Source: Nanobdellota archaeon (GTDB taxonomy: Archaea > Nanobdellota > Nanobdellia > Pacearchaeales > GW2011-AR1). Taken from it: a DNA stretch of 43,038 bases. The notes beneath the pieces were generated by a model. The model was not told where the DNA came from. It worked only from the letters and a program-made list of their open reading frames with translations, and made no database searches. Shown here piece after piece: positions 1 to 33,716 of the stretch (position 1 is the stretch's first letter; each line of letters starts with the position of its first letter). The stretch spans positions 1 to 43,038 of the forward strand of contig JBBTAK010000011.1 of the NCBI GenBank assembly GCA_038044245.1, given 5' to 3'. The position numbers and the translations under genes are program-made.

Positions 1-1908
1 ATTTCACAGAAAAACTTTTTGGATTTCTTAAAAAAAGGCGAGATCTACAGGAAAGACTTTCCAACACTCTGGTGTCCTGAATGCCAGACAGCGATAGCCC
101 AGGCAGAATTGGAAGACAGGGAGATTCCAAGCACTTTTTCTTTCATTAAGTTTCATGCAGGAGGACACGAACTTCTGATAGCAACCACAAGGCCTGAGTT
201 GATAGAAGCATGCGTTGCAATATTTGTTAATCCAAAAGACAGCAGGTACAAAGGCCTGAAAGGAAAAAACGCAAAGGTTCCTCTATTTAATTTTGAAGTT
301 CCAATAATTGCAGACCCCAGTGCAGATCCTGAAAAAGGGACAGGGGCTATGATGATTTGTTCTTATGGGGATAAGTATGATATTGATGCAGTTGTAAGGC
401 ACAAACTTAAGCCAAGAATAGTTCTTGACAAACAAGGAAGAATGACTAATGGGAGATATAAGGGACTAAAAGTAAAAGAGGCAAGAAAAAAAATTCTTGA
501 AGACCTTAAAAATTCCGGCTTGGTCATTAAACAAGAGCATATAACTCATGCAGTTAATGTACATGACAAATGCGGGACAGAGATAGAATTTCTTCCTACA
601 GAGCAATGGTTCATAAAAATTCTTGACAAAAAAAAGATATGGCTTTCTCAGGGAAAGAAGATAAAATGGCACCCGGAACATATGAGAAAGAGGTATGAAA
701 ATTGGGTTAATGGGCTTAATTGGGACTGGAATATCTCAAGAGACAGGCATTTTGGAGTTCCGATTCCTGTTTGGGAATGCAAAAAATGTAAAGATATTAT
801 TCCGGCAGAAGAAAAAGAGTTGCCTGTTGATCCAATGCAAACAGCAAAAAAATGCAAAAAATGCGGTGCAGAAGCTGTTGGTGAATCCAAAGTCCTTGAT
901 ACCTGGGCAACATCTTCTCTGACTCCCCAGATAATATCTTCTCTTGTTGGAAACAAAGTCAAGATTCCCCTTTCTTTAAGGCCGCAGGCACACGATATAA
1001 TAAGAACATGGGCATTTTACACAATAGTCAAGTCTTATCTCATTGAAAAGAAATTTCCATGGGAAAATATAATGATTTCCGGGTTTGTCACCCTCGAAGG
1101 CGAGAAAATGTCAAAATCAAAAGGAAATGTTGTTGATCCAAAAGAGATAATAAATAATTATGGTGCAGATGCCTTGAGATTCTGGGCAGCTGGTTCAAAG
1201 CTTGGTGAAGACATGGAATACCAGGAAAAAGATGTTCAGGCAGGAAAAAGATTCGTAACAAAACTATGGAATGCTTCTAACTTCGTTTTTATGAATCTTA
1301 AGGATTACAAGCCGAAGAAACCCAAAAAACTTGAAAAGCTGGATGAATTATTTTTGAATGAATTGAACAGGGTTATTTACACGACAACAGGCAGATTTGT
1401 AGAATATAATTATTCAAAAGCCAGATCAGACACAGAAGAATTTTTTTGGAAAGATTTCTGCGATAACTATCTTGAAATTGTAAAATGGAGAGTTTACAAT
1501 GGAAACAAGCAGGAAAAAGAATCTGCATTTTACACATTATACACATCGCTTTTGACAATATTGAAGCTTATAGCTCCAATAACACCTTTCATAACAGAGC
1601 ATATTTATCAGGAACACTTTAAGAAAAATGAAAAAGAAAAAAGTATTCATATTTCTGAATGGCCAAAAGTAGAGAAACAAATATCTAAAGAATCTAGGCA
1701 TAAAATTGGATGGAATAAACTAAAAGATTTAATCTCAAAAATAAGAAAAGTAAAATCAGATAATAAAAAACCTATGAATTCTGAGATCATTCTTGGAGTT
1801 GATAAAAAGGCTTATTCTTATCTAAAAGAAGTTTTACAAGACCTTAAACATGTTACCAATGCTAAAGAAATTAAATCAGGAAAAGAGTTCAAGGTAGAAT
1901 TCATATAA
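1..1908 (+). CDS. valS: Valyl-tRNA synthetase, C-terminal ~630 aa (5' end lies outside the window)
   Basis: Frame 1 is open from nt 1; the listed start at 19 is an internal TTG. Class I aaRS KMSKSKGN motif. Editing-domain block ATTRPEL...GTGAMMICSYGDKYD is typical of archaeal ValRS. Also WCPECQTAIAQAELE and DWNISRDRHFGVPIPVW. Confidence 0.9.
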   Translation: MSQKNFLDFLKKGEIYRKDFPTLWCPECQTAIAQAELEDREIPSTFSFIKFHAGGHELLIATTRPELIEACVAIFVNPKDSRYKGLKGKNAKVPLFNFEVPIIADPSADPEKGTGAMMICSYGDKYDIDAVVRHKLKPRIVLDKQGRMTNGRYKGLKVKEARKKILEDLKNSGLVIKQEHITHAVNVHDKCGTEIEFLPTEQWFIKILDKKKIWLSQGKKIKWHPEHMRKRYENWVNGLNWDWNISRDRHFGVPIPVWECKKCKDIIPAEEKELPVDPMQTAKKCKKCGAEAVGESKVLDTWATSSLTPQIISSLVGNKVKIPLSLRPQAHDIIRTWAFYTIVKSYLIEKKFPWENIMISGFVTLEGEKMSKSKGNVVDPKEIINNYGADALRFWAAGSKLGEDMEYQEKDVQAGKRFVTKLWNASNFVFMNLKDYKPKKPKKLEKLDELFLNELNRVIYTTTGRFVEYNYSKARSDTEEFFWKDFCDNYLEIVKWRVYNGNKQEKESAFYTLYTSLLTILKLIAPITPFITEHIYQEHFKKNEKEKSIHISEWPKVEKQISKESRHKIGWNKLKDLISKIRKVKSDNKKPMNSEIILGVDKKAYSYLKEVLQDLKHVTNAKEIKSGKEFKVEFI

Positions 1909-1909
1909 A

Positions 1910-2998
1910 ATGTCAATGACAAAGCAGGAACTGGCAGAATTGGTAGAACAGCTTGAGCAGTATAAAGCCAGAGCAACAGAGCTAATAACAGTGTATATTC
2001 CTATTGGCCAAAATATTTACACTGTGGCCGACCAGCTGGAAGCTGAAAAATCAACTGCAAAGAACATAAAATCCGCAGGAACAAGAAAAAATGTTGGAAA
2101 TGCCCTTGACAAGATAACTAGGCAGCTGAAAGAATACAAGAAAACTCCTGAAAAAGGCCTTGCCCTTTTTGCCGGAAATGTTTCAAAGATTGAAGGACAA
2201 GATGACTTAAAAATTTGGGCTGTGGAACCAATGATGCCACTGAAAACAAGAATGTACCGGTGTGACAAGGAATTTATTCTTGATCCTTTAAAAGAAATGC
2301 TCGAAGTGACAGAAGTTTTTGGCCTTCTCGTTATGGACAGGAAAGAGGCAACCATGGGATTGCTGGAAGGAAAGAGAATAGATGTTCTTAATAAAATGAC
2401 TTCGGGAATTCCTTCAAAGGTAAGGGCGGGAGGACAAAGCTCACAAAGGTTCCATAGGATTACAGAAGGCTTGACAAAGGAATTCTACAACAGGGTTGCA
2501 GAGGACATGAAGAAGATTTTTCTTGGAATGCCAAAACTCAAGGGAATATTAATTGGGGGGCCCATACCAACTAAAGATGAATTTCTGGAAGGTGAATATC
2601 TGACAGACCAGCTTCAGAGAAAGGTTTTGGGAAAGATAGACATGGGCGATTCCTCCGAATCAGGCCTGAAAGAACTAGTGGAAAGGTCTCATGGGCTTCT
2701 CGTAGACCACGAGAGGCTTAGGGAAAAGAAAGAGGTTGAAACATTTTTCAGAGTTTTGGGAGAAGATCCTGAAAAATCGACTCTTGGAGAAAAAGACACC
2801 AGAAGAGCTTTGGAAATGGGTGCTGTTGCTACTTTGTATCTAAGCTCAAAACTTGAAAAATCCAAGGTAAAAGAGCTTTCAAAAATGGCTGAAGATATGG
2901 GATCAGAAATAAAAATAATCTCTGCAGAAACTCCCGAAGGAGAGCAATTCTGGAATATGAAAGGCATAGGGGCAATATTAAGATTCAAGATTGGATGA
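1910..2998 (+). CDS. prf1: Peptide chain release factor aRF1
   Basis: NIKS motif (TAKNIKSAG) and GGQ motif (RAGGQSSQRF). Typical aRF1 N-terminus (TELITVYIPIGQNI). Starts 1 nt after the valS stop. Confidence 0.93.
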   Translation: MSMTKQELAELVEQLEQYKARATELITVYIPIGQNIYTVADQLEAEKSTAKNIKSAGTRKNVGNALDKITRQLKEYKKTPEKGLALFAGNVSKIEGQDDLKIWAVEPMMPLKTRMYRCDKEFILDPLKEMLEVTEVFGLLVMDRKEATMGLLEGKRIDVLNKMTSGIPSKVRAGGQSSQRFHRITEGLTKEFYNRVAEDMKKIFLGMPKLKGILIGGPIPTKDEFLEGEYLTDQLQRKVLGKIDMGDSSESGLKELVERSHGLLVDHERLREKKEVETFFRVLGEDPEKSTLGEKDTRRALEMGAVATLYLSSKLEKSKVKELSKMAEDMGSEIKIISAETPEGEQFWNMKGIGAILRFKIG

Positions 2999-4283: not shown

Positions 4284-5525
4284 ATGGAAATCATAACTGT
4301 TATCATTTACCTGTCCATATATCTGGGACTTTTTGCCACTACTTTTTATATTCTCAGCTTTGTCCATTATTCAAGAAAGAAAAGGGAGTTTTATACAGAC
4401 AAGGAACTTCCGGCTGTTTCTGTCATAATTCCGGCATATAACGAAGAAGAGACAATAGAAAAAACACTGAAGTCTGTCTTAAAATCAGATTATCCTGATT
4501 TTGATGTCATAGTTATAGATGATGGAAGCACAGACAACACTTTAAAGATTGCCAGAAAATTTGAAAATGAGAAAGTAAGAGTTTTTCACAAGGAAAACGG
4601 GGGAAAAGGAACCGCATTAAACCTCGGAATAAAAAGGGCAAAAGGAAAAATTATATTCACCATGGACGCCGACACAACAGTTGATACAAAAAGCATGAAA
4701 AACATGGTAAGATTTTTCAAAGATGAAGAAATAATGTGTGTGAGTCCTGCTATTGTCATAGACAAACCAAAAAATATTCTCCAAAGAGTCCAGTATATGG
4801 AATACCTTCTCGGACTTTTCCTGAGAAAAGCCTTCGCCTCTTTAAAGTCAATATACATCACTCCTGGAGCTTTTTCTGCTTACAGAAAAACATTTTTTGA
4901 CAAATACGGATTGTATGATGTTGGAAATCCGACAGAAGACCTGGAAATGGCGTTAAGAATCCAATATAAAGGATTCTACACTGAAAATTGTCCAGAGGCT
5001 CCCGTATACACAATTGCTCCCTCAAAATTCAAGGAGCTGATGATACAGAGAAGGAGATGGTACTTTGGATTGCTGAAAAACCTGTGGACTTACAGAAAAA
5101 TCATAGGAAAAAAATACGGCGACCTTGGAAGCTTTGTCATACCAACAGCATTGGTGAGCATAATTCTTTCAGTTATTGTCGTCGTGTACATGTTCTTCAA
5201 GACTGTTTTTGAAGTTAAAGACACTCTGGTTTTTTATCAGAGCATTAATTTTGATTTTTCAAGCGTATTTAACATAAATCTTTATTTCATAGAAAGGGTT
5301 CTGTTCATTTTCTTCAGCAAGCCTGTCGTGCTTTTTATTCTTCTGTTCATGGCTGTCCTTGGCTTTTACATGCATTATGCCTCAAAAAAAATAGGGAGGC
5401 TTTCAGGTTTATTCGTCAATCTCGTGCTTTTTTACCTGTTTTTTGCAATTCTTTTCGGGTTATGGTGGGTGATTACTCTGTTCTACACGGCATTTTCAAA
5501 AACTGTAAAATGGAGGGAGCTATAA
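4284..5525 (+). CDS. Family 2 glycosyltransferase, processive type, membrane-embedded
   Basis: VSVIIPAYNEEETI, VIVIDDGSTDNT, DAD (TMDADTTV) and QRRRW motifs. N- and C-terminal TM helices. Confidence 0.85.
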   Translation: MEIITVIIYLSIYLGLFATTFYILSFVHYSRKKREFYTDKELPAVSVIIPAYNEEETIEKTLKSVLKSDYPDFDVIVIDDGSTDNTLKIARKFENEKVRVFHKENGGKGTALNLGIKRAKGKIIFTMDADTTVDTKSMKNMVRFFKDEEIMCVSPAIVIDKPKNILQRVQYMEYLLGLFLRKAFASLKSIYITPGAFSAYRKTFFDKYGLYDVGNPTEDLEMALRIQYKGFYTENCPEAPVYTIAPSKFKELMIQRRRWYFGLLKNLWTYRKIIGKKYGDLGSFVIPTALVSIILSVIVVVYMFFKTVFEVKDTLVFYQSINFDFSSVFNINLYFIERVLFIFFSKPVVLFILLFMAVLGFYMHYASKKIGRLSGLFVNLVLFYLFFAILFGLWWVITLFYTAFSKTVKWREL

Positions 5526-5574
5526 AAGAGAGAAACTTATATAAGTTTTAATCGTTTTTCATCAGAACCAAAAC

Positions 5575-6237
5575 ATGGAAAAAAGAAAGTATGAAAGCAA
5601 GAACAGGTATCTCGTATCTCTGTTAATAGCAACACTCGTTTTCCTGCTCATCTTTGCAATAAGCTATTCAATATCTTACCTTGAGCTTCAGAGGGTTTCC
5701 AATCTTCAGGTTGGCGTTGGCTATGACATCTTCCAGGACAAGCTGGATTATTCCCTGTTCAATGCATCGATATGTAATGACAATTCTCTGAACAAGGTAT
5801 CCAAAGACCTTGGCTTTCAGGGAAGAATAATAGACGACCTTGAAAGAAGGCTTGGAAAACAGAATGAGAATGTCCTTCTTAGGAAGCAGTTTTATTCACT
5901 CATAGAGCTTGAGCATTTCGAGTTTGTCAGGGATTTCAACAAGAACTGCGTAAAACCATGGGAAACAGAAGAGAGAATAAACACCATATTCTTCTTTTAT
6001 TCCAACAATGAATCTTATCTCAAAGACAGCGAGGAAGCAGGAAGAATCCTTGAAAGCGTTGTCAACAGGAACGAGAATCTCCTTGTTTATTCTTTTGATG
6101 TAGACCTTAGCAGCAATCTTGTGGATAAACTGGAAAGAAAATATGGCGTAACAGAATCTCCGACAGTAGTAATAAATGAAAAGACCAAGTTAAAACTTCC
6201 GGCAAATATACTTGAAATAGAAAAATACCTTTTCTAG
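5575..6237 (+). CDS. Hypothetical N-terminally membrane-anchored protein
   Basis: One N-terminal TM helix (LVSLLIATLVFLLIFAISYSI). The C-terminal ...ESPTVVINEKTKL is loosely thioredoxin-fold-like but has no CxxC. Confidence 0.5.
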   Translation: MEKRKYESKNRYLVSLLIATLVFLLIFAISYSISYLELQRVSNLQVGVGYDIFQDKLDYSLFNASICNDNSLNKVSKDLGFQGRIIDDLERRLGKQNENVLLRKQFYSLIELEHFEFVRDFNKNCVKPWETEERINTIFFFYSNNESYLKDSEEAGRILESVVNRNENLLVYSFDVDLSSNLVDKLERKYGVTESPTVVINEKTKLKLPANILEIEKYLF

Positions 6238-7927: not shown

Positions 7928-8674
7928 ATGGAACCTGAAGCAACAGAGAAAGTTTCTGCAGGAAGCTTTGACCTCAACAAATGGCTTTACGGAGGCTATG
8001 AAGCAGGCATTATAACTATGATTGCAGGTCCTCCTGCAAGCGGGAAGACTAATTTTGTTATTCTTGCTGCATGCAGCCAGGCAAAGAAAGGCAACAAAGT
8101 CGTTTTTATTGATACAGAAGGCGGTTTTTCTACAGAAAGGGTAAAGCAGATTGTTGGTGAGAATTACAAGGAAATTTTGAAAAACATCCTGTTTCTGCAG
8201 CCTATGGATTTTTTTGAGCAGAGGAAAATATTCAACAAGCTGGCAGAGCAGGTCAAAAAAGAAAATATCGGCCTCTTAATTGTTGATGGCATGGCTATGC
8301 ATTACCGCCTTGAGCTTGGAAATGTTAAGAACAAGGAGGCAGCATCTGCAGAAGACATAAAAAAAGTTAATCGGGCTTTGGCATGGCAGATGAAGACTCT
8401 TGCAGAAATCTCCAGAAAGCAGAGAATTCCTGTGATAATAACAAATCAGGTTTATTCTGAATTCCTGTCTGAAGATGACAGGAAAAAGGGCATAAAACCG
8501 GGAGTAAACCTCGTTGGAGGAGACCTGATGAAGTACTGGAGCAAAACCATCATTGAGCTGAAGAACGAGGATGGAAAAAGGAAAGCTGTATTGCTTAAAC
8601 ACAGAAGCCTTCCGAACAAGGATATGAATTTTGAGATAAAGGAAAAGGGTATATTTCGCAGAGGATGGTTGTAA
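7928..8674 (+). CDS. radB: DNA repair and recombination protein RadB
   Basis: RecA-fold with Walker A GPPASGKT. VVFIDTEGGFSTERVKQI, LLIVDGMAMHYR, ITNQV. The ~250-aa size without an N-terminal HhH domain indicates RadB rather than RadA. Confidence 0.85.
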   Translation: MEPEATEKVSAGSFDLNKWLYGGYEAGIITMIAGPPASGKTNFVILAACSQAKKGNKVVFIDTEGGFSTERVKQIVGENYKEILKNILFLQPMDFFEQRKIFNKLAEQVKKENIGLLIVDGMAMHYRLELGNVKNKEAASAEDIKKVNRALAWQMKTLAEISRKQRIPVIITNQVYSEFLSEDDRKKGIKPGVNLVGGDLMKYWSKTIIELKNEDGKRKAVLLKHRSLPNKDMNFEIKEKGIFRRGWL

Positions 8675-8932: not shown

Positions 8933-10144
8933 ATGACAGAGGACATTCGTTTTGAGGTAATAAAGAAGATAGCTGATACGAGATTCAGATACAGAGACAT
9001 AGGGAAAATCTCCCAGATTGAGGCGAGCAGCCCTCCAAGCGTTTTCATTGGATCAAAGCTAAAATATCCTCTTGTAAATGTTGGAATCCTTAGCCCGCTG
9101 GAAAAAGATGAAGATGCATGGATTTATGACAAACCAGAGTTTTGGGCTAAAAACAATTTTGGGATAAGGGATGTTGTCAGTCTAAGAGAAAGCCTTCTTA
9201 ATTCAAGATTTCAGTCAAATGTCACTTCACCGAGAAGCGGCGAGAAGAAATTCGTTGAAATGGCCCAGGAACTTGCGCTTGCTTCAAAGCCTGTTGATGT
9301 TGAAATAGAATTCATGGGAAGAGTTGGTCCTGGATTCAGGAGAGACAGGATAGTTCTTCCCCAGGGAATGAATGCTCCATTGAAAAAAGCAAAAATTACA
9401 GGAAACGTGAAGATTGATTCAAAGCTGGATAAGGTAATGAACGATGAGATAAAAGCCACAGACGCCATAGAGTTTCTTTACAAGAATAGCTTCTCAGAAT
9501 ACACATTGAGCAAAGTTCTTTCTGTTGGAGTTCTTGGCATGAAAAAAGACAGGAGGCTTGTTCCAACACGCTGGTCAATCACAGCGACAGACGACATGCT
9601 CGGAAAAAATCTCCTTAAAAAAATCAGGACTTACAAATGGATTGAGAATCACGAATTATTCTTTGGGGAATTCATGGGAAACTGTTATTTAATAATGCTT
9701 TTCCCGAATGTTTTTTCTTACGAGCTTTTTGAATTGTATCTTCCTGGAAGCTCGTGGAATCCCGGAAAAGAGATAAAGGCTTCCACAGACATGGAGGATT
9801 TTTATGGAAGAAGCAGCTATGCCTCAAGTACTGCTGGAGGTTATTATGCATCAAGGCTTCCTGTACTAGAATATCTGGAAAAAGAACAGAGACAGGCGAG
9901 CGTTTTAGTAATTAGAATAGAATTACCTACCTATTGGGCAGCTTTAGGAGTATGGGTATGCAGAGAAGCTACAAAGAAAGCTATGTCAACCAAATCACTC
10001 CAATTCCAAGACAAAAAGGAATTAATAGAGAGTTCTAAGAAAGTCAGCATGATAAAATTCGGTTTTGATCCCGCTAAAATTTTTAAGAAAAGTAAGTTAA
10101 TCGCTTCTTTAGACCAAAAAAGTCTTACCGAATTCTTTTCGTAA
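8933..10144 (+). CDS. nreA: Nre-family DNA repair protein (DUF650/DUF651 type) ending in a PIP box
   Basis: N-terminal SSPPSVFIGSKLKYPLVNVGILSP and ~400-aa length are typical of archaeal Nre proteins. C-terminus QKSLTEFFS is a canonical QxxLxxFF PCNA-interaction motif (nt 10115-10138). Confidence 0.72.
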   Translation: MTEDIRFEVIKKIADTRFRYRDIGKISQIEASSPPSVFIGSKLKYPLVNVGILSPLEKDEDAWIYDKPEFWAKNNFGIRDVVSLRESLLNSRFQSNVTSPRSGEKKFVEMAQELALASKPVDVEIEFMGRVGPGFRRDRIVLPQGMNAPLKKAKITGNVKIDSKLDKVMNDEIKATDAIEFLYKNSFSEYTLSKVLSVGVLGMKKDRRLVPTRWSITATDDMLGKNLLKKIRTYKWIENHELFFGEFMGNCYLIMLFPNVFSYELFELYLPGSSWNPGKEIKASTDMEDFYGRSSYASSTAGGYYASRLPVLEYLEKEQRQASVLVIRIELPTYWAALGVWVCREATKKAMSTKSLQFQDKKELIESSKKVSMIKFGFDPAKIFKKSKLIASLDQKSLTEFFS

Positions 10145-11117
10145 GCCTTTCTGTTTTGTGGGCTAAATTACAGGTTGGAAATTGGTTAGATAATCTTTTC
10201 ATATCTCTATAGAATTTATTATAGCTTTTTGATGAAATACTAAACCTATAAACATCAAATTTATCATAAGCATATTTTTTCCTTATTTGATGGCATATAT
10301 ATCCACATTTAATACCAATATCCCTTATGTCTTTCATCAATCTTTCATTCTTTCCGTAAATAGTTATAACTTCTCCCACATGACCCTCATCAATAATAAA
10401 AGAAATTAATCCAGCAACTAAAAAACTCCTCTTTAGCCCCTTTATATTTTTGGGAAGATATGATTCAAAAGTATTTGTACTCGGAAGTTTAAAATAATAA
10501 ATATAGAATTCTGTTATTATTTTTGGAACATTTAATCTACCATTATGAAACTCCTTTTTAGGATAATCAAAATCTCCAAACACTATCTGTAATTTTCTTA
10601 AAAAATTGGTTAATCCTTCTTTGTTCATTTGTCTATAAGAAGAAACCTCCCCCTTCTTTCCTATGTGCCCATCTCCTAAAAAATGAAAAATAACAGAGGT
10701 CATTTCCGGAGTTAGATATAAAGGCAACTTTTGGTTAAATATTGGGTGTGATTTTCCAGTTCCAGTATAATATTCTATATTTTTTTCTATTTCTATCATT
10801 GTTTTATTATTTTTTTTGCTGCTTTCAGAGAGAATTTTTGATATTTCTATCAAAATCCATAGTGGAATATTAATATTCTTTATTCTACCTCTATCTTTTT
10901 TTGAACCTATTTTCCAATAACTTAAATGTCCATTATTATATTTTCTTTTTAACCCATATCTTTTTCCAGACTTATTTAATTCTTTAAGTAAATCCTTAAT
11001 AGATTTATATCTATTTTTCAATTCCTTAAAAATATTCTCTTTAAACTTTTGATTTAGCCCCAAAAAAGTAAGTGTTGGTGGAAACTCCCAGATATGAATC
11101 TTTTTATAATTTCTCAT
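10125..11117 (-). CDS. Free-standing double-motif LAGLIDADG homing endonuclease
   Basis: Two LAGLIDADG motifs: VIFHFLGDGHIGKKG and LVAGLISFIIDEGHVGE. The stop codon (10125-10127) lies inside the PIP-box codons of nre on the other strand (20-nt convergent overlap). Confidence 0.85.
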   Translation of the reverse strand: MRNYKKIHIWEFPPTLTFLGLNQKFKENIFKELKNRYKSIKDLLKELNKSGKRYGLKRKYNNGHLSYWKIGSKKDRGRIKNINIPLWILIEISKILSESSKKNNKTMIEIEKNIEYYTGTGKSHPIFNQKLPLYLTPEMTSVIFHFLGDGHIGKKGEVSSYRQMNKEGLTNFLRKLQIVFGDFDYPKKEFHNGRLNVPKIITEFYIYYFKLPSTNTFESYLPKNIKGLKRSFLVAGLISFIIDEGHVGEVITIYGKNERLMKDIRDIGIKCGYICHQIRKKYAYDKFDVYRFSISSKSYNKFYRDMKRLSNQFPTCNLAHKTERLTKRIR

Positions 11118-11138
11118 GGAGTAATTAAGATATTTTTC

Positions 11139-11148
11139 TTTATATATT
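11139..11148 (-). promoter_or_regulatory. TATA-like box for the LAGLIDADG gene
   Basis: Minus strand reads AATATATAAA, 22-31 nt upstream of the ATG at 11117. This fits a leaderless start. Confidence 0.35.
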
Positions 11149-11171
11149 TTGTGTGTTGTGTCGTTTGTGAG

Positions 11172-11267
11172 ATGATAAAATTCGGTTACGATCCCTCAAA
11201 AATACTGAAGAAGAGCAAGGTCCTTGAGAACATAAAAACCCAGACGAATCTGGGGAAGTGGGTTTAA
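11172..11267 (+). pseudogene. Displaced orphan copy of the nre 3' end (31 codons + stop)
   Basis: Translates to MIKFGYDPSKILKKSKVLENIKTQTNLGKWV*, against MIKFGFDPAKIFKKSKLIASLDQKSLTEFFS* at 10049-10144. 22 of the first 24 nt are identical. No upstream ORF in frame. Ends in a PIP-like QTNLGKWV. Confidence 0.75.
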
Positions 11268-11309
11268 TTAACATTTATATATGAAAGAGATTATATTTTA
11301 ATAAGTTAA

Positions 11310-11666
11310 ATGTCTTTAAGAAATTATTTTAATAATAATGCAGGATTATTTGCAGGAGTAGCTCTATTTTCTTTTTTAATGGTAGAAACCTTAAAAAGTC
11401 ATATAATTTTATCTTTTGTTTCTTATTATTTTGTTGTTTTATTATTAATTTATATTACTTGGAATGCTAAATTAGACGTTAAAGAACCCATTTGGAAATT
11501 CTTTTTATTTTTAGGATATGTTCTTTTTTTCCTTTCTCTTTTAGAATTCGGATATGAATACAACTCTATATTGCTTAAACTACCAGAAATTATCCTTTAT
11601 TTTCCTACTATGATTTTTATGTTTGCATTGTTAAGAAGAATATATAAAACAATCAAGGGGAATTAA
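11310..11666 (+). CDS. Hypothetical small membrane protein
   Basis: 118 aa with 3-4 hydrophobic helices. Very AT-rich. Lies within the AT-rich islet. Confidence 0.45.
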   Translation: MSLRNYFNNNAGLFAGVALFSFLMVETLKSHIILSFVSYYFVVLLLIYITWNAKLDVKEPIWKFFLFLGYVLFFLSLLEFGYEYNSILLKLPEIILYFPTMIFMFALLRRIYKTIKGN

Positions 11667-12398
11667 TTAAGAATTATTTTTTTGTGATTCTCTTTTTCCC
11701 TGATCAAAATATTTTTCTGAGAAATCTCTTACAAATTTATCAACCTCTAAAAATGTTTTTAGTGCATACCCCTCTTCTTCAATTTGGCTTTTAGCTAATT
11801 GGGCAATTGGTCTAAACTCCTTAGAGCTCTTTAATACAGGGCTTATTCCTTCAATGAGTTTTTGTCTAGCTTGTGCTTCGGTTAATTTTCCTTGCTTGAC
11901 TAACCCATGCAATTCCTTCAGCTTTTCTACGATGTTTACATTTTTAATTTCGAATGTTGGATAATAAATTCCTTTAGATAATTTCATCATGTTATAGTGA
12001 GTGTAAGGATTCCTTAAGTCATTTTTTTTACTTTCTAAAAAAGAAATCTCATCCGAGTTAAGTATATTTTTAGATTTTATTATTGATTCTCTAAAATCCA
12101 TTTTCTCTATATTTTCGTCTGATACACCCTCTATATGAAGCTTTTCTTTTGTAAGACTCTCTAATAAAATACCACATAATACTAAAGAAGCATTGTAGAA
12201 TCCTAAAGCAAGTAAATAATAAGTTTGAAAATACAATGCTCTTAAATGACTTTCCATAAGAGGAATTTCTTCATTTGGGAGATTTTGTAAATTTATAGCT
12301 ATAGTTTTTTTTAGATTGCTGAACATATCCTCTATAAATTTTTTTCTATTTTCAAAAATTTTCATTTTCCTCTTTCTTCTTTCTTCTGTATTCTTCAA
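11667..12398 (-). CDS. HEPN-domain protein (DUF4145-like)
   Basis: Rx4H motif RNPYTH (nt 11997-12014). It is preceded by the helical block ASLVLCGILLESLTKEKL, the layout seen in DUF4145/Abi-type HEPN domains. Alternative start at 12365. Overlaps the topA stop. Confidence 0.6.
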   Translation of the reverse strand: MKNTEERRKRKMKIFENRKKFIEDMFSNLKKTIAINLQNLPNEEIPLMESHLRALYFQTYYLLALGFYNASLVLCGILLESLTKEKLHIEGVSDENIEKMDFRESIIKSKNILNSDEISFLESKKNDLRNPYTHYNMMKLSKGIYYPTFEIKNVNIVEKLKELHGLVKQGKLTEAQARQKLIEGISPVLKSSKEFRPIAQLAKSQIEEEGYALKTFLEVDKFVRDFSEKYFDQGKRESQKNNS

Positions 12399-14784
12399 TC
12401 CTCTCCCGGTTTGTTTCGCATTGAGGATTGAAGCAGAACATCCAGGGTTTTTTTCCCTTTCTGATTGATAACAACATTGGGAAACCGCACTTTTCGCAGT
12501 TCTTTCTTGGCGTTAAAGGTTTTATCAGGCTGTCTGGCGGGAGGCTGTATGTGTTTCTGCATTCAGGATATTTGCTGCACCCGATAAAACTTCTCCTCGT
12601 CTTTTTAGAGTACATTATCTGTAAAGATCCAAGGTTGCAGACAGGGCAGATGTTCAGCTTGTTTTCCTCTCTCTGTTGTTGCCATAGTTTTTCATTTGCA
12701 CCAGCAAGTTCCTTCCCTATTTCTTTTTCCTGTGACTTGAATTGTTCTGAGATCTTACTTATGGTTTCCTTTGCCTCTTCTATCACTTTCTTTTCTTTCT
12801 CCAGGTAGTTCTTCTTTGACCTTTGTATTTCATCCATCTCACGTTCAAAGTTTCTTGTCAGGGCTTCGTCTATTATTATTGGCGAGTGCTTTTCCAGAGT
12901 TTCTATAAGGGAAATTCCCAAAGGAGTCGCCTTTATGCTCTGGTCCTGCACATAACCCCTATCATATAGTGTTTCCAGAATTGCAGCCCTTGTTGCCTTT
13001 GTTCCAAGATTTCTTTTTTCCAGCTCTGAGACAAGGCTCGCAGGGGAGAATCTGTGCGGAGGCTGCGTTTCTTTTTCTTTGAAATTAACTTCTGAGATTT
13101 TTACCTTTCCATTTATATCTGGAATATTTGTTTCAGATATTTTGAAAGGATATATCTCTAACCAGCCTTTCTTTTTAATTGTTGAACCTCTTGCCTGGAA
13201 AAATAATTTATTTGTCTTACTCTTTTCACTATCATCAACAACCTTAATTTTATCACCTCTTTTTTCATTATTAACATTTTTTTCATCAGCATCTATTTTG
13301 GCAGTTATTACTTTGTTTTCAACAACAGCATCTTCGCAGAACAGGGAGAGAAATCTTCTCACAATTAAGTCGTATACTTTTTTTTCATCCCCCCCTATTT
13401 CTTCAAAGTTTCCTGTAGGATATATGGAAGGATGGGCAGAATCTGTCTTTTTTCCTTCTACAGGAACTTTTCCCGTCAAAAGTTTTTCAGCCCTATACCT
13501 TGCCGCAAGCCTCTTGAGAATTTCCCTGTAATTTATTGAAGGGGGGAGCTTTTGGCTGGATGTTCTTGGGTAAGATATTAAGCCAGAAAGGTAAAGGCTC
13601 TGCGCTGCCTGCAGTGTTTTTCCCGGGTTCAAGTTAAATAACCTGTATGCCTCTGTTTGCAAATTTGTCAAATTAAAAGGCGGATTTGGCTGAATCTCTT
13701 GGGTTTTTTTCTCTGTGCTTGTGTCTGCAGTCTTTCCGGGAAGTTTTTTGAAAATTTCCAACTCTTCTTTTTTGAAGATATCCCTGTTGAATATCAAATC
13801 TATCTTTGGCTTTTCTAATGTAATAACCACCTGCCAGTAAGGCTTTGTCTTGAAAGAAGAAATCTGTTTTTCTTTCTGGACTATGAGATTTAGGGCAGGC
13901 CCCTGGACTCTTCCAATAGACATTATCTTAAATTTTCCTATTGCTCTTATGGCATTCATCAATGCTCTTGAAAGATTTATTCCGTAAAACCAGTCAAGGT
14001 AATGCCTTGTCTCTCCTGCAATTGCCTGACCCCAGTCAAGAGTTGGGGATTTTTTTTCATATGATTCATTAAGCTCTTTTTCCGTGAGTGTGGAAAATTT
14101 CATCCTTGAAGCATCTTTCTGCCCTGCGATAAATCTCACGGCATTCAATCCTATGACTTCTCCTTCTATGTCATAATCTGTAGCAACAGTTATGGAACCA
14201 GCGTTTTTTACCAGAGAAATAAGAGCATCGTAATATTTTTTGCTGAAATCGCCTTTCCTTGCAATATAGTTTGGAACCCATCCAATATTAAAAACAGGCA
14301 TGCCGCCTGCGCTGGAAGATTTAGAAGTTTGAATTAAAGTGAACAAATGGCCGACAGCGCATGCAACAATAATTTTTTTCCCGTTTCTGCTGACTTCGTG
14401 GTAAGGAACAGAGCCCATATTTCTTTGGACAGATTTTCCTAGGGCAGAAGCGATTTTTAGTGCTGCCTGCGGTTTTTCCGTGATTACCAGTTCATAACCA
14501 TCTTCTTTCAAAGAAACCTTTTTGGGAATAAACTCTGCCTTTTCTCTCTTTCCTTTTTTAACTTCACCTTTAACCCTGCTTTTTACCGCTCTTTTTTGTT
14601 TTTTGACTTTCACAATTTTCTTAATCTCTCCCTGTTTTTCTACAGTTATCAAAGAGCTCGGCTCAATTGTCTTATAGGGTTTTTCGACAGAATGCTTTAT
14701 ATCTTCAGGCTCTATGGGAAAAAATTGCTCTGCAGATGTTTCCGCTATTGTCTTTTTCTGTTTTCTTGGCATGTTAAATCTCAA
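12352..14784 (-). CDS. topA: DNA topoisomerase, type IA (TopA) with C-terminal zinc ribbons
   Basis: TOPRIM start YELVITEKPQAALKIA. DYDIEGE. Active-site GLISYPRTSSQKL. Two C4 zinc ribbons (CPVCN...CSKYPEC; CEKCG...CFNPQC). A ~95-aa Lys-rich N-terminal extension precedes TOPRIM. Confidence 0.9.
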   Translation of the reverse strand: MRFNMPRKQKKTIAETSAEQFFPIEPEDIKHSVEKPYKTIEPSSLITVEKQGEIKKIVKVKKQKRAVKSRVKGEVKKGKREKAEFIPKKVSLKEDGYELVITEKPQAALKIASALGKSVQRNMGSVPYHEVSRNGKKIIVACAVGHLFTLIQTSKSSSAGGMPVFNIGWVPNYIARKGDFSKKYYDALISLVKNAGSITVATDYDIEGEVIGLNAVRFIAGQKDASRMKFSTLTEKELNESYEKKSPTLDWGQAIAGETRHYLDWFYGINLSRALMNAIRAIGKFKIMSIGRVQGPALNLIVQKEKQISSFKTKPYWQVVITLEKPKIDLIFNRDIFKKEELEIFKKLPGKTADTSTEKKTQEIQPNPPFNLTNLQTEAYRLFNLNPGKTLQAAQSLYLSGLISYPRTSSQKLPPSINYREILKRLAARYRAEKLLTGKVPVEGKKTDSAHPSIYPTGNFEEIGGDEKKVYDLIVRRFLSLFCEDAVVENKVITAKIDADEKNVNNEKRGDKIKVVDDSEKSKTNKLFFQARGSTIKKKGWLEIYPFKISETNIPDINGKVKISEVNFKEKETQPPHRFSPASLVSELEKRNLGTKATRAAILETLYDRGYVQDQSIKATPLGISLIETLEKHSPIIIDEALTRNFEREMDEIQRSKKNYLEKEKKVIEEAKETISKISEQFKSQEKEIGKELAGANEKLWQQQREENKLNICPVCNLGSLQIMYSKKTRRSFIGCSKYPECRNTYSLPPDSLIKPLTPRKNCEKCGFPMLLSIRKGKKPWMFCFNPQCETNRERIEEYRRKKKEENENF

Positions 14785-32905: not shown

Positions 32906-33716
32906 ATGAATTGCTTCTAGGTATTTTTTTATCTTTCATTAAAAATTCGTAATAACTTACTAAAGCAGGAGTCGCAATAATAATCCAAATAACTAATTCT
33001 TCAACAGGGGCAGGATTTCCGAAAAAATTGATAACTTTGATAAAGTTCCCATTAGTGGGGAAAACCCATTGCCCAGCGCTTAAGGCTGCTGCCTCAAACA
33101 AAAACATCAGAAAAGTGAAATATACCCCAATGATTAAAAACTTGCGCCAAAATGAAGGAAAATTATACAGAAATAGAACTAAAGGAACAACTGCAAATAA
33201 TCCCCCTGAAATTAGGTAAAAATATGGAATATAAATATAGGTTTTATCTGTATAAAAAAATATCAATATTACCAATATTAAGATGATGGCAGAATACAAA
33301 AAATAATAAATGCGATGAGAGATTATATTATTTTTTTTGGTTGATTCAAAGAAAAACTTATAGAAAAGCGTGGCATAAAAAGCCCACAATAATGCAAAAA
33401 AATAGCTATCAATCGTTACCAATCCTAGAAACTTAAATGGGAATACTGTTTCTGTGATTATCCATGAATTATTGAGATATGCAACAGGCTCAATTATCCA
33501 ATAAAATGCTGTTCCAAAAATAAGCGCAAAAATAGCACTTTTATTGACAATTTTTGAATTACGCATGGCAAGATACAAAGATGGTGTACCAAAAAATAAT
33601 AAAATAGAAATCAAATAATTTGTTTTTAGAAAAAATGTGATGATTGCTGCAATAACTGGAAGAATTACTACAACAGCAATGTCAATGTTTTTCTGACGTT
33701 TATTATCATAATTCAT
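32898..33716 (-). CDS. Hypothetical polytopic membrane protein
   Basis: About 8 hydrophobic helices. Very AT-rich. The C-terminal NPAPVEELVIW is loosely reminiscent of the PxEE motif of lycopene-cyclase-domain proteins. Lies 9 nt downstream of the ATPase gene. Confidence 0.5.
   Translation of the reverse strand: MNYDNKRQKNIDIAVVVILPVIAAIITFFLKTNYLISILLFFGTPSLYLAMRNSKIVNKSAIFALIFGTAFYWIIEPVAYLNNSWIITETVFPFKFLGLVTIDSYFFALLWAFYATLFYKFFFESTKKNNIISHRIYYFLYSAIILILVILIFFYTDKTYIYIPYFYLISGGLFAVVPLVLFLYNFPSFWRKFLIIGVYFTFLMFLFEAAALSAGQWVFPTNGNFIKVINFFGNPAPVEELVIWIIIATPALVSYYEFLMKDKKIPRSNSFN

What the first reader, a model, noticed from the sequence alone, without database searches (positions are those of the whole stretch)
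10049..11267. LAGLIDADG endonuclease cassette has replaced the PCNA-binding tail of the Nre repair gene; the displaced native tail survives 1.1 kb downstream
Seen: nt 10049-10144 (MIKFGFDPAKIFKKSKLIASLDQKSLTEFFS*) and nt 11172-11267 (MIKFGYDPSKILKKSKVLENIKTQTNLGKWV*) are two diverged copies of the same 31-codon gene end. 22 of the first 24 nt are identical, and the sequences drift apart after that. Only the first copy is in frame with the 372 upstream Nre codons; the second is an orphan. Between them lies a minus-strand double-motif LAGLIDADG ORF with its own TATA box, in visibly more AT-rich DNA. Its stop codon sits inside the PIP codons of the fused tail. Both tails end in PCNA-interaction motifs of different flavour. 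The fused tail has the canonical QKSLTEFF. The orphan tail has QTNLGKWV, which closely resembles this genome's own FEN1 tail QKNLGGWI. Inference: the orphan is the native end, and the fused end arrived with the endonuclease gene. On this reading the element repairs the gene it interrupts by supplying a foreign C-terminal PIP module. This 'bring your own gene end' design is known for mobile endonuclease ORFs in organelle genes. I am not aware of it for an archaeal chromosomal repair gene, and here the swapped part is the protein's PCNA docking peptide.
Basis: partly seen in the sequence, partly recalled or inferred. Interest (0 to 1): 0.8.

Follow-up and report, generated by a model that had tools for sequence, protein, structure and literature searches.

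The report
Mobile endonuclease cassette replacing nre's tail
A selfish endonuclease gene has inserted into the end of the archaeal DNA-repair gene nre and keeps that gene working by supplying its own replacement PCNA-docking tail, a design known from fungal mitochondria that here proves widespread and recently mobile in DPANN archaeal chromosomes.

Summary
It is also one instance of a widespread element.

- **Genes:** nre (8933-10144, Pfam Nre_N+Nre_C) ends in a tail with the low GC of the insert. The orphan copy (11172-11267) has the GC of nre and is 88/96 nt identical to the working tail of an ORF-less relative; the in-frame tail scores 51/96.
- **ORF:** the minus-strand 330-aa ORF hits no profile library. 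A confident AlphaFold model matches only LAGLIDADG endonucleases. Both motif acids are conserved, and distant family members reach Pfam LAGLIDADG_3.
- **Distribution:** 161 metagenome stretches encode a relative (80 fetched). Down to about 39% identity the ORF nearly always lies convergent to nre. 35 of 49 testable loci keep an orphan native nre end.
- **Empty sites:** close relatives without the ORF have the native tail and then topA.
- **Mobility:** the cassette-type tail is polyphyletic on the nre tree. Two locus pairs share a near-identical 1.5-1.8 kb tract over the cassette between diverged flanks.
- **Decay:** ORF remnants and a mosaic ORF-less allele also occur.
- **Correction:** the foreign tract starts near codon 340-350, upstream of the 31-codon repeat.
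- **Untested:** cleavage, the target site and PCNA binding.

It is a new variant of the fungal mitochondrial 'mORF gene hybrid'.

The parts
8933..10144 (+). nre (NreA-type repair gene), 403 aa. It is a hybrid: a native body plus a foreign 3' end.
   Evidence: ORF list. Pfam Nre_N 1.8e-77 and Nre_C 8.8e-27. Block identity to ORF-less L120 is about 80% for codons 1-310, then 70, 61 and 60%.
9950..10048 (+). Approximate co-converted (cassette-type) part of nre upstream of the repeat, codons ~340-372 (...SLQFQDKKELIESSKKVS). The left boundary is uncertain by about +/-40 nt.
   Evidence: Identity to type-A relatives falls to 61-70% here, while the B-type alleles L069, L118 and L119 share QDKKELIES.
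10049..10144 (+). In-frame replacement tail ('tail B'), 31 codons plus stop. The canonical PIP box QKSLTEFF lies at 10115-10138.
   Evidence: GC 0.29, like the insert. 90% aa identity to the tail of ORF-bearing L002. 51/96 nt identity to the native tail of L120.
10125..11117 (-). Free-standing double-motif LAGLIDADG endonuclease gene, 330 aa. Motifs are FHFLGDGHIG (D149) and SFIIDEGHVG (E244). An extra N-terminal domain of about 130 aa looks like an HTH.
   Evidence: AF2 pLDDT 94.7, pTM 0.91. The top 35 PDB fold hits are all LAGLIDADG proteins, and viral hits are DOD/intein endonucleases. D149 and E244 are >=90% conserved. pN/pS is 0.15-0.32. Distant relatives hit Pfam LAGLIDADG_3.
10125..10144 (.). 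20-nt convergent overlap. The last ORF codons (TKRIR*) are antisense to the nre codons LTEFFS*.
   Evidence: Read directly from the sequence. The same abutting or overlapping arrangement recurs in related loci.
11118..11171 (-). 5' region of the endonuclease gene, with a TATA-like box TATATAAA at 11139-11146 about 26 nt before the ATG. This would fit a leaderless archaeal transcript.
   Evidence: Sequence. The promoter function is inferred, not tested.
11172..11267 (+). Orphan native nre end: 31 codons plus the native stop, with the PIP-like box QTNLGKWV at 11241-11264.
   Evidence: 30/30 aa identity to P0097. 88/96 nt identity to the L120 tail, with 25/31 third positions identical. GC 0.40 and GC3 0.61. 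pN/pS against native tails is 0.05-0.15.
10049..10064 (+). Left copy of the 16-nt exact direct repeat ATGATAAAATTCGGTT. The right copy is at 11172-11187. Recombination between the two copies would delete the cassette and give a 403-aa Nre with the native tail.
   Evidence: Only two occurrences in the window, and 0 of 100 shuffles gave 2 or more. The in-silico excision product is an intact 403-aa Nre.

Best explanation
The 330-aa ORF is a free-standing two-motif LAGLIDADG homing endonuclease. It drives a mobile cassette of about 1.2 kb that targets the 3' end of nre in DPANN archaea (Nanoarchaeota, Pacearchaeota, Woesearchaeota).

The cassette has two parts:
- A replacement nre 3' end. In this window it spans roughly codons 340-403 and ends in a canonical PIP box, QKSLTEFF.
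- The endonuclease gene, oriented convergently, with its own promoter. Its last codons are antisense to the PIP codons.

Proposed mechanism: the enzyme cuts an nre allele that lacks the cassette. Recombinational repair then uses a cassette-bearing allele as template and copies the endonuclease gene together with its linked gene end. The left-hand conversion tract varies in length. NreA therefore stays full length and keeps a PCNA-docking motif, so the insertion costs the host little.

The recipient's own gene end has two fates. It can be left downstream as a non-functional orphan (11172-11267 here). Or it can be replaced outright when the right-hand crossover falls in topA. Later the endonuclease gene decays. 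Alternatively, recombination between the two repeated gene ends excises it and restores a native-type nre.

Shown: architecture, fold, purifying selection, empty sites, polyphyly, recent transfer tracts and decay stages. Inferred: DNA cleavage, the target site, the homing mechanism, expression, and PCNA binding of either tail.
For: **Fold and family**
- AF2 pLDDT 94.7. All 35 top PDB fold hits are LAGLIDADG proteins, including I-DmoI and I-Tsp061I at target-normalised TM 0.55-0.61.
- D149 and E244 are >=90% conserved. pN/pS is 0.15-0.32.
- Distant members reach Pfam LAGLIDADG_3 at 43.7 and 26.8 bits.

**Foreign versus native ends**
- GC is 0.29 for the in-frame tail and 0.40 for the orphan.
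- The orphan is 88/96 nt identical to the L120 tail; the in-frame tail is 51/96.
- The block profile against L120 ends 82 / 70 / 61 / 60%, or 91% when the orphan is substituted for the tail.

**Specific association with nre**
- The ORF is convergent to or abutting nre in nearly all loci with ORF identity >=39%.
- 35 of 49 loci carry an orphan. Of 29 unique orphans, 1 has an internal stop and 3 have a damaged PIP motif.

**Empty sites**
- In L007, L009, L012 and L017, topA lies 6-18 nt after a native-tailed nre.
- In L002 versus L007, 1,220 nt replace 46 nt.
- In the close clade, 5 of 5 against 8 of 8, p=7.8e-4.

**Horizontal movement**
- B-tailed Nre bodies are each closest (93-95%) to W-tailed Nre of their own sub-clade, while B tails are shared across sub-clades.
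- L062/L063: nre body pS 0.48, ORF pS 0.01, tail pS 0.00. There are 3 mismatches in about 1.48 kb over the cassette, against about 13% divergence in the left flank.
- L073/L077: a clean tract of about 1.8 kb between flanks diverged by about 5%.
- L045-47: ORF pS 0.39-0.42 but orphan pS 0.76-0.93 with pN/pS 0.12-0.16.

**Life-cycle stages**
- L119 and L020/21 keep the B-type tail plus only a 50-aa or 37-aa C-terminal ORF remnant.
- ORF-less L035 is L004-like except for a B-type patch of about 90 nt at the junction.

**Other**
- No intron or ribozyme is present.
- Loss of the PIP motif phenocopies nreA deletion in Haloferax volcanii, which explains why a tail must be supplied (PMC4929162).
Against: - No biochemical evidence shows that the protein cuts DNA, and no target site can be named.
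- The smallest replaced segment is the last ~13 nre codons. Yet cassette-bearing genomes keep intact orphans of 18-63 codons that should contain any target lying there. Self-immunity is therefore unexplained.
- ORF and Nre divergence are strongly correlated (r=0.87). Synonymous sites between the window and every sampled relative are saturated. Much of the history could therefore be vertical, and no recent transfer is shown for the window itself.
- In a few loci (L038, L054, L062/63) the in-frame tail and the orphan resemble each other more than anything else sampled. This suggests local duplication or gene conversion in those lineages.
- The mosaics come from metagenome assemblies, which can be chimeric.
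- Many relatives carry extra ArsR/MarR-type wHTH domains, as regulators do.
Confidence: 0.78

Rival explanations
1. Domesticated partner. The LAGLIDADG-fold protein no longer acts as a homing enzyme. It is a DNA-binding protein, for example a regulator like WhiA or a repair cofactor, that is stably co-inherited with nre. The duplicated gene ends are relics of one or a few ancient insertions.
For: - The ORF is strongly conserved and under purifying selection.
- ORF and Nre divergence correlate at r=0.87, and the ORF is more conserved than the Nre body in 90% of pairs.
- HTH or wHTH domains occur throughout the family.
- WhiA and the bI3 maturase appear among the fold hits.
Against: - Presence is patchy among Nre genes whose bodies are 93-95% identical.
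- ORF remnants and precise absences exist.
- Both catalytic-position acids are retained, unlike WhiA (my own knowledge).
- Near-identical cassette tracts lie between diverged flanks.
- Orphans resemble native tails of their own clade rather than each other. Relics of one ancient event would have decayed.
Confidence: 0.09
2. Passive hitch-hiker. The cassette moves between strains only by ordinary homologous recombination in a recombination-prone region. The endonuclease is inactive or irrelevant, and the tail swap is a by-product.
For: nre itself looks mosaic outside the junction. For example, L035 against L004 drops to 60% in columns 181-210. Cleavage is untested.
Against: - The low-divergence tracts are centred on the cassette in two independent pairs.
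- Purifying selection on a 330-aa ORF with intact active-site residues across hundreds of loci needs a function.
- The same architecture is driven by an active endonuclease in the Allomyces atp6 case, as reported in PMC3630166.
Confidence: 0.08
3. Local origin. The two tails arose by tandem duplication of this genome's own nre end. One copy then diverged, and an unrelated ORF inserted between them, so no foreign gene end is involved.
For: - The first 16 nt of the two copies are identical, whereas relatives vary at synonymous positions there.
- L038 and L054 have in-frame and orphan tails that are 71-88% alike.
Against: - In the window the in-frame tail groups with tails of other ORF-bearing loci (90% with L002), not with the orphan (45% aa).
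- Its GC matches the insert.
- The foreign tract extends upstream of the repeat.
- B tails are polyphyletic on the nre tree.
Confidence: 0.04
4. Assembly artefact. The arrangement is a chimeric join in a metagenome-assembled genome.
For: The window evidently comes from a MAG. An identical Nre protein is named 'MAG... Nanoarchaeota archaeon'.
Against: The same architecture recurs in dozens of independent assemblies from different projects, and in contigs up to 350-730 kb.
Confidence: 0.01

Closest known systems
Fungal mitochondrial mobile-ORF 'gene hybrids': Allomyces macrogynus atp6; Glomus sp. atp6, atp9, cox2 and nad3; Rhizopus atp9; Mortierella cox2; cob and atp6 C-terminal duplications in Endoconidiophora (PMC3630166, PMC6279837)
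   Same: - An endonuclease ORF (LAGLIDADG or GIY-YIG) sits at the 3' part of a host gene.
- An inserted foreign C-terminus is in frame with the host gene.
- The displaced native C*-terminus lies about 1 kb downstream. It is nearly identical to relatives' native ends, with mostly synonymous differences, while the two copies in one genome are only about 60% identical.
- Empty sites exist in close relatives.
- The inserted end is inferred to come by horizontal transfer.
   Different: - The host here is an archaeal chromosome, not an organelle.
- The target is a DNA-repair gene, and the swapped part is its PCNA-docking peptide.
- The ORF is on the opposite strand with its own promoter and overlaps the gene end antisense. 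In most mitochondrial cases the mORF is co-oriented and often in phase.
- The endonuclease belongs to a sequence family not captured by Pfam and has an extra N-terminal HTH-like domain.
- The association persists across a very deep radiation (Nre identity down to about 32%).
Free-standing homing endonucleases of T4-like phages and cyanophages that act by intronless homing with co-conversion or marker exclusion (Seg and Mob enzymes, F-CphI; PMC2988022, PMC2790892, PMC6083498)
   Same: - The endonuclease gene is free-standing, between or next to conserved genes.
- Spread is inferred to occur by a double-strand break in the endonuclease-lacking allele, with co-conversion of flanking markers over variable tracts.
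- L002 against L007 looks exactly like this: the native end is replaced and no orphan remains.
   Different: - Those enzymes are GIY-YIG, HNH or Endo VII-like, not LAGLIDADG, and they live in phage genomes.
- They do not usually leave a duplicated gene end.
- No relatives of this family were found in viral contigs.
Archaeal LAGLIDADG homing endonucleases: I-DmoI and I-Tsp061I in rRNA introns, and intein-borne PI-type enzymes
   Same: - Monomeric two-motif LAGLIDADG fold with an acidic residue at the end of each motif.
- These are the best structural matches.
   Different: - Those are embedded in self-splicing introns or inteins, which makes insertion phenotypically silent.
- Here there is no intron (no Rfam hit) and no intein, because the ORF is on the opposite strand.
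- Silence is achieved by supplying a substitute gene end.

Membership tests
LAGLIDADG endonuclease superfamily | Two LAGLIDADG-type motifs, each ending in an acidic residue followed by Gly, about 95-100 residues apart | tested here: met
   FHFLGDGHIG (D149-G150) and SFIIDEGHVG (E244-G245). G148, D149, E244 and G245 are >=90% conserved, and G150 and D243 are invariant, in 56 homologues.
LAGLIDADG endonuclease superfamily | Tandem alpha-beta-beta-alpha-beta-beta-alpha fold | tested here: met
   AF2 pLDDT 94.7, pTM 0.91, with matching secondary-structure order. Foldseek against PDB: the top 35 hits are all LAGLIDADG proteins, with probability 1.0 for the top 27. The viral library returns DOD/intein endonuclease domains.
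LAGLIDADG endonuclease superfamily | Match to a curated LAGLIDADG sequence profile (Pfam LAGLIDADG_1, _2 or _3, or Hom_end) | tested here: inconclusive
   The window ORF gives no hit in Pfam (E<=10), NCBIfam, PHROGs or PDB sequence and profile searches. Distant members of the same HMMER family (E<=1e-28 to the family profile) do pass the LAGLIDADG_3 cut-off: P0343 at 43.7 bits and P0339 at 26.8 bits, against a cut-off of 22.5. The link is transitive only.
LAGLIDADG endonuclease superfamily | Site-specific cleavage of a long (about 14-40 bp) DNA target | not testable with these tools
   Needs purified protein and substrates.
Mobile-ORF gene hybrid (Allomyces atp6 type) | Endonuclease ORF inserted at the 3' part of a host gene, with an inserted C-terminus in frame that restores a full-length product | tested here: met
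   nre is an uninterrupted 403-aa ORF with a full Nre_C match to residue 401. The ORF abuts it.
Mobile-ORF gene hybrid (Allomyces atp6 type) | Displaced native C-terminus downstream, closer to relatives' native ends than to the inserted end | tested here: met
   The orphan is 88/96 nt identical to the L120 tail, against 53/96 to the in-frame tail. pN/pS is 0.05-0.15. 35 of 49 related loci show the same feature.
Mobile-ORF gene hybrid (Allomyces atp6 type) | Empty sites in close relatives and patchy, polyphyletic distribution | tested here: met
Mobile-ORF gene hybrid (Allomyces atp6 type) | Evidence of horizontal transfer of the ORF together with the inserted end | tested here: met
   L062/L063 and L073/L077 share near-identical cassette tracts between diverged flanks. 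This was not shown for the window itself, where synonymous sites are saturated against all relatives.
Mobile-ORF gene hybrid (Allomyces atp6 type) | The encoded endonuclease cleaves the empty site | not testable with these tools
   Not done, and the target site is unknown.
NreA (archaeal PCNA-dependent repair factor) | Nre_N and Nre_C domains plus a C-terminal PIP motif QxxhxxAA | tested here: met
   Pfam. QKSLTEFF lies at the C-terminus. The motif definition and its requirement for function come from PMC4929162. PCNA binding of this protein was not tested.
Group I/II intron-borne or intein-borne homing endonuclease | ORF embedded in a self-splicing RNA or protein element | tested here: not met
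   No Rfam family matches at E<=1 in 9500-12500. The ORF is on the strand opposite to nre, which excludes an intein.

The most novel reading that the evidence does not exclude
The tail swap may not be neutral. Across the whole nre-associated clade, cassette-borne tails use a canonical Q..L.[ED]FF PIP box. This holds even in deep branches where the ORF and nre do not overlap. Native tails and orphans mostly use Q..LG.WF. W at the aromatic position occurs in 1 of 42 cassette tails, 22 of 31 native tails and 14 of 29 orphans. The element may therefore re-tune how NreA competes for PCNA, for example by biasing double-strand-break repair towards the recombination that copies the cassette. Alternatively, the mostly intact orphans (about 24 of 29), some starting at an ATG as in this window, might be expressed as free PIP peptides that modulate PCNA.
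Probability: 0.1. Interest if true: 0.85.

Novelty: new variant of a known kind. Interest (0 to 1): 0.62.

Why it matters
- **Reach of the strategy.** The 'bring your own gene end' strategy of mobile endonuclease ORFs was documented in fungal mitochondria. Here it operates in archaeal chromosomes, and does so repeatedly across the DPANN radiation.
- **New enzyme family.** The work defines a large, previously unannotated family of free-standing LAGLIDADG enzymes (84 clusters at 90% identity; 791 representatives in the wider family). These are potential new long-target nucleases.
- **Annotation and phylogeny.** It explains why Nre C-termini fall into two classes. The 3' end of nre is a horizontally exchanged module, so phylogenies and PIP-motif surveys that include it will be misled.
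- **A natural experiment.** The two PIP flavours on one repair protein allow a direct test of how PIP sequence sets PCNA partner choice in archaea.

Tried and rejected
- **Direct profile recognition of the ORF failed.** I tried Pfam at E<=10, NCBIfam, PHROGs, and PDB by phmmer and by a 56-sequence profile.
- **No intron or ribozyme.** Rfam finds nothing at E<=1.
- **No viral vector found.** The viral-contig scan gave no relative.
11268-12400 has no nucleotide or protein counterpart in any of about 120 loci. Empty sites are instead nre followed by topA.
- **Dating the window's insertion failed.** Synonymous sites are saturated (pS 0.6-0.9) against every relative.
- **dN/dS on orphans cannot prove neutrality.** Pairs are mostly too diverged. 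Where they are informative (L045-47), orphans look constrained. This more likely reflects independent capture of diverged host tails than selection on orphans.
- **The target site could not be deduced from orphan boundaries.** At least four boundary classes exist (W341, about L364, M373, about K386). They only partly track ORF relatedness: within-class identity is 76% and between-class identity 73%.
- **Distant ORF homologues were checked for the same gene-end trick at other genes.** Members at 30-35% identity sit beside RT, Elp3, Mrr-helicase, DUF7121 or Kae1 genes. I did not search them for duplications.
- **One script timed out and was rerun**.


Full report
**1. The observation**

nre occupies 8933..10144 (+) and encodes 403 aa. 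It matches Pfam Nre_N (1.8e-77) and Nre_C (8.8e-27, aligned to residue 401).

They share 53/96 nt, 14/31 aa and 22 of the first 24 nt. This is the best non-self ungapped match in the window on either strand; background is mean 26.6, sd 4.5, and the next best is 46. The 16-mer ATGATAAAATTCGGTT occurs only at these two places.

Between the two copies lies a 330-aa minus-strand ORF, 10125..11117. Its stop codon falls in the L/T codons of QKSLTEFF, giving a 20-nt overlap with nre. Its last codons, TKRIR*, are antisense to LTEFFS*. A TATATAAA sits about 26 nt before its ATG.

GC content is 0.40 for nre codons 1-339, 0.29 for the in-frame tail, 0.27 for the ORF and 0.40 for the orphan (GC3 0.61). 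The low-GC zone continues to about 12400, through a 118-aa membrane ORF and a 243-aa ORF, before topA.

**2. What the ORF is**

No profile library recognises the ORF. Pfam at E<=10, NCBIfam, PHROGs, and PDB by sequence or by a 56-member profile all fail.

An AlphaFold2 model built on 56 homologues is very confident, with pLDDT 94.7 and pTM 0.91. Its 35 best PDB matches are all LAGLIDADG proteins. They include the TliVMA intein endonuclease domain (3.8e-7), I-DmoI and I-Tsp061I (target-normalised TM 0.55-0.61), PI-SceI, I-SceI, the bI3 maturase and WhiA. The viral library returns DOD/intein endonuclease domains.

The two motifs, FHFLGDGHIG and SFIIDEGHVG, end in D149-G150 and E244-G245. These residues are >=90% conserved or invariant in the family. 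The ORF is under purifying selection, with pN/pS 0.15-0.32.

An exhaustive profile search finds 791 representatives at 50% clustering. Distant members that match the family profile at E<=1e-28 pass the Pfam LAGLIDADG_3 cut-off (P0343 at 43.7 bits, P0339 at 26.8 bits). They also carry Cro-like N-terminal and ArsR/MarR-like C-terminal HTH domains.

Residues 1-130 of the window protein have a helix-helix-helix-hairpin pattern suggestive of a winged helix. I did not verify this by fold search.

**3. Context in relatives**

The organism is a DPANN archaeon; homologues carry Nanoarchaeota, Pacearchaeota and Woesearchaeota labels. Synteny of radB, then nre, then a convergent topA, is conserved.

Among 37 species-representative loci fetched through Nre, most have no ORF and end ...ENIKTQTTLGKWF/V. 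In L007, L009, L012 and L017, topA follows nre within 6-18 nt. These are genuine empty sites.

161 metagenome stretches encode a relative of the ORF, and the best 80 were fetched. The ORF lies convergent to and abutting or near nre in nearly all loci with >=39% ORF identity. This holds even where Nre is only 32-45% identical to the window's. More distant ORF relatives (30-35%) sit in other contexts.

**4. Which end is native**

The window's orphan is 30/30 aa identical to Nre P0097. It is 88/96 nt identical to that gene's tail in L120, whereas the in-frame tail scores 51/96.

In 31-codon blocks, window against L120 reads 68 87 81 80 81 72 83 78 83 82 | 70 61 | 60. The last block rises to 91 if the orphan is substituted for the tail. 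The foreign tract therefore starts near codon 340-350, upstream of the repeat.

The in-frame tail groups with tails of other ORF-bearing loci: 90% with L002, 83% with L119 and 73% with L118/L069.

In the close clade, 5 of 5 ORF-bearing or remnant loci have this tail and 8 of 8 ORF-less loci have the native one (p=7.8e-4).

More generally, W at the PIP aromatic position occurs in 1 of 42 in-frame tails of ORF-bearing loci. It occurs in 22 of 31 ORF-less tails and 14 of 29 orphans. Fisher tests give 1.5e-10 for in-frame against ORF-less tails and 3.6e-6 for in-frame tails against orphans, while orphans do not differ from native tails (p=0.11). These counts are not phylogenetically independent.

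**5. The duplication is a family trait**

35 of 49 ORF-bearing loci with sequence beyond the ORF start carry an orphan nre end. It is 18-63 codons long, begins 20-65 nt from the ORF's ATG in most loci, and runs to the native stop. Of 29 unique orphans, only 1 has an internal stop and 3 have a damaged PIP motif.

Each orphan resembles native tails of its own host clade. For example, the L045-47 orphans are 80% identical to the L027 tail.

**6. Evidence for mobility**

(a) Polyphyly. Each B-tailed Nre body is closest (93-95%) to a W-tailed Nre of its own sub-clade. Near-identical B tails are shared between sub-clades whose bodies are only 75-83% identical.

(b) Recent transfer tracts. L062 and L063 differ at about 13% of positions up to the last ~43 nre codons. 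They then show 3 mismatches in about 1.48 kb covering the nre end, the ORF, the orphan and about 250 nt more. For this pair, nre body pS is 0.48, ORF pS 0.01 and tail pS 0.00. L073 and L077 have flanks diverged by about 5% and a clean tract of about 1.8 kb over the nre 3' end and the ORF.

(c) In L045-47 the ORFs are much closer to one another (pS 0.39-0.42) than their orphans are (pS 0.76-0.93, pN/pS 0.12-0.16).

(d) An occupied/empty pair. In L002, 1,220 nt replace 46 nt of L007. The left junction is at nre codon ~389 and the right junction at the topA 3' end, and no orphan remains.

(e) Decay and loss. L119 (the closest Nre, 83%) and L020/21 retain the B-type tail and only a 50-aa or 37-aa C-terminal ORF remnant. 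ORF-less L035 is 90-100% identical to L004 except for a patch of about 90 nt at codons ~341-371. That patch is 80-87% identical to the B-type allele L069. P0146 has the same B-then-A pattern at protein level. Recombination between the window's two 16-nt repeats would yield an intact 403-aa native-tailed Nre.

**7. Limits**

ORF and Nre divergence correlate at r=0.87. All relatives of the window are saturated at synonymous sites. The window's own insertion therefore cannot be dated or shown to be recent.

The low pN/pS of its orphan against native tails (0.05-0.15) shows only that it spent nearly all that divergence as a working gene end.

The target site and the basis of self-immunity remain unknown (note 6). 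The mosaics derive from metagenome assemblies. Cleavage, transcription and PCNA binding are all inferred.

**8. Comparison with what is known**

The architecture matches the fungal mitochondrial mobile-ORF 'gene hybrids'. Examples are Allomyces atp6 and Glomus atp6, atp9, cox2 and nad3. Those have an inserted C-terminus, a LAGLIDADG or GIY-YIG mORF, and a native C*-terminus about 1 kb downstream. The native end is nearly identical to relatives' ends, with synonymous differences, while the two copies in one genome are about 63% identical (PMC3630166). Related cob and atp6 C-terminal duplications are also described (PMC6279837). L002-type loci resemble phage intronless homing with co-conversion (PMC2988022 and PMC2790892, listed).

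Several things differ here:
- The host is an archaeal chromosome.
- The ORF is oriented antisense and has its own promoter.
- The endonuclease sub-family is unannotated and has an extra HTH-like domain.
- The element shows deep, specific fidelity to one target gene.
- The swapped module is the PIP peptide. Its loss abolishes NreA function in Haloferax volcanii (PMC4929162).

Searches of the held literature found no description of this element.

**9. Verdict**

This is a new variant of a known kind of mobile element. It is of solid specialist interest, 0.62.

Noticed in passing
window 11310-11666 (+) and 11667-12398 (-): Two low-GC (0.23-0.28) ORFs lie between the orphan and topA. One is a 118-aa predicted membrane protein and the other is 243 aa. 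Neither has a significant family hit; the best are chance-level (TerS 0.027, SLATT 0.16). Neither has a counterpart in any of about 120 related loci. The nre-topA spacer ranges from 3 nt to about 3 kb among relatives, so it looks like a general insertion hot spot.
   Followed up: partly
window 33096-33419 (-): A weak paralogue of the 118-aa membrane ORF (23% identity over 110 aa, tblastn E=3e-4).
   Followed up: no
L112:1679-2851 (-) and L115:5928-7115 (-): Distant members of the ORF family (30-35% identity, with extra HTH domains) lie convergent to reverse-transcriptase genes of about 390 aa (RVT_1, about 1e-22). This may be another kind of composite mobile element.
   Followed up: no
L073 about 8008-8592 (locus coordinates, minus strand): A second, divergent copy of the LAGLIDADG ORF (27% identity over residues 7-212) lies about 2 kb from the nre-associated copy in the same contig.
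   Followed up: no
L064 (nre about 1620-2174, minus strand in locus coordinates): In this ORF-bearing locus the nre reading frame is disrupted in its last third (...ISRRLGCGFAARVRELRS...). This is either a frameshift or sequencing error, or a case where the insertion did inactivate nre.
   Followed up: no
L099:3606-4910 (+) and 4989-6179 (+): In one deep-branching lineage, a 396-aa family member (30% identity) lies in tandem downstream of nre on the same strand, rather than convergent to it.
   Followed up: no
window 7928-8674, 8933-10144, 12352-14784: The gene order radB, nre, then convergent topA (Topoisom_bac, Toprim and zinc ribbon) is conserved across the sampled Nanoarchaeota, Pacearchaeota and Woesearchaeota genomes.
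   Followed up: partly
window 11172-11267 versus L120:2387-2482: The orphan is more similar to L120's tail at third codon positions (25/31) than the nre bodies are to each other (54%; binomial P=0.002). This hints at separate recombination histories for the body and the tail even before the insertion.
   Followed up: partly
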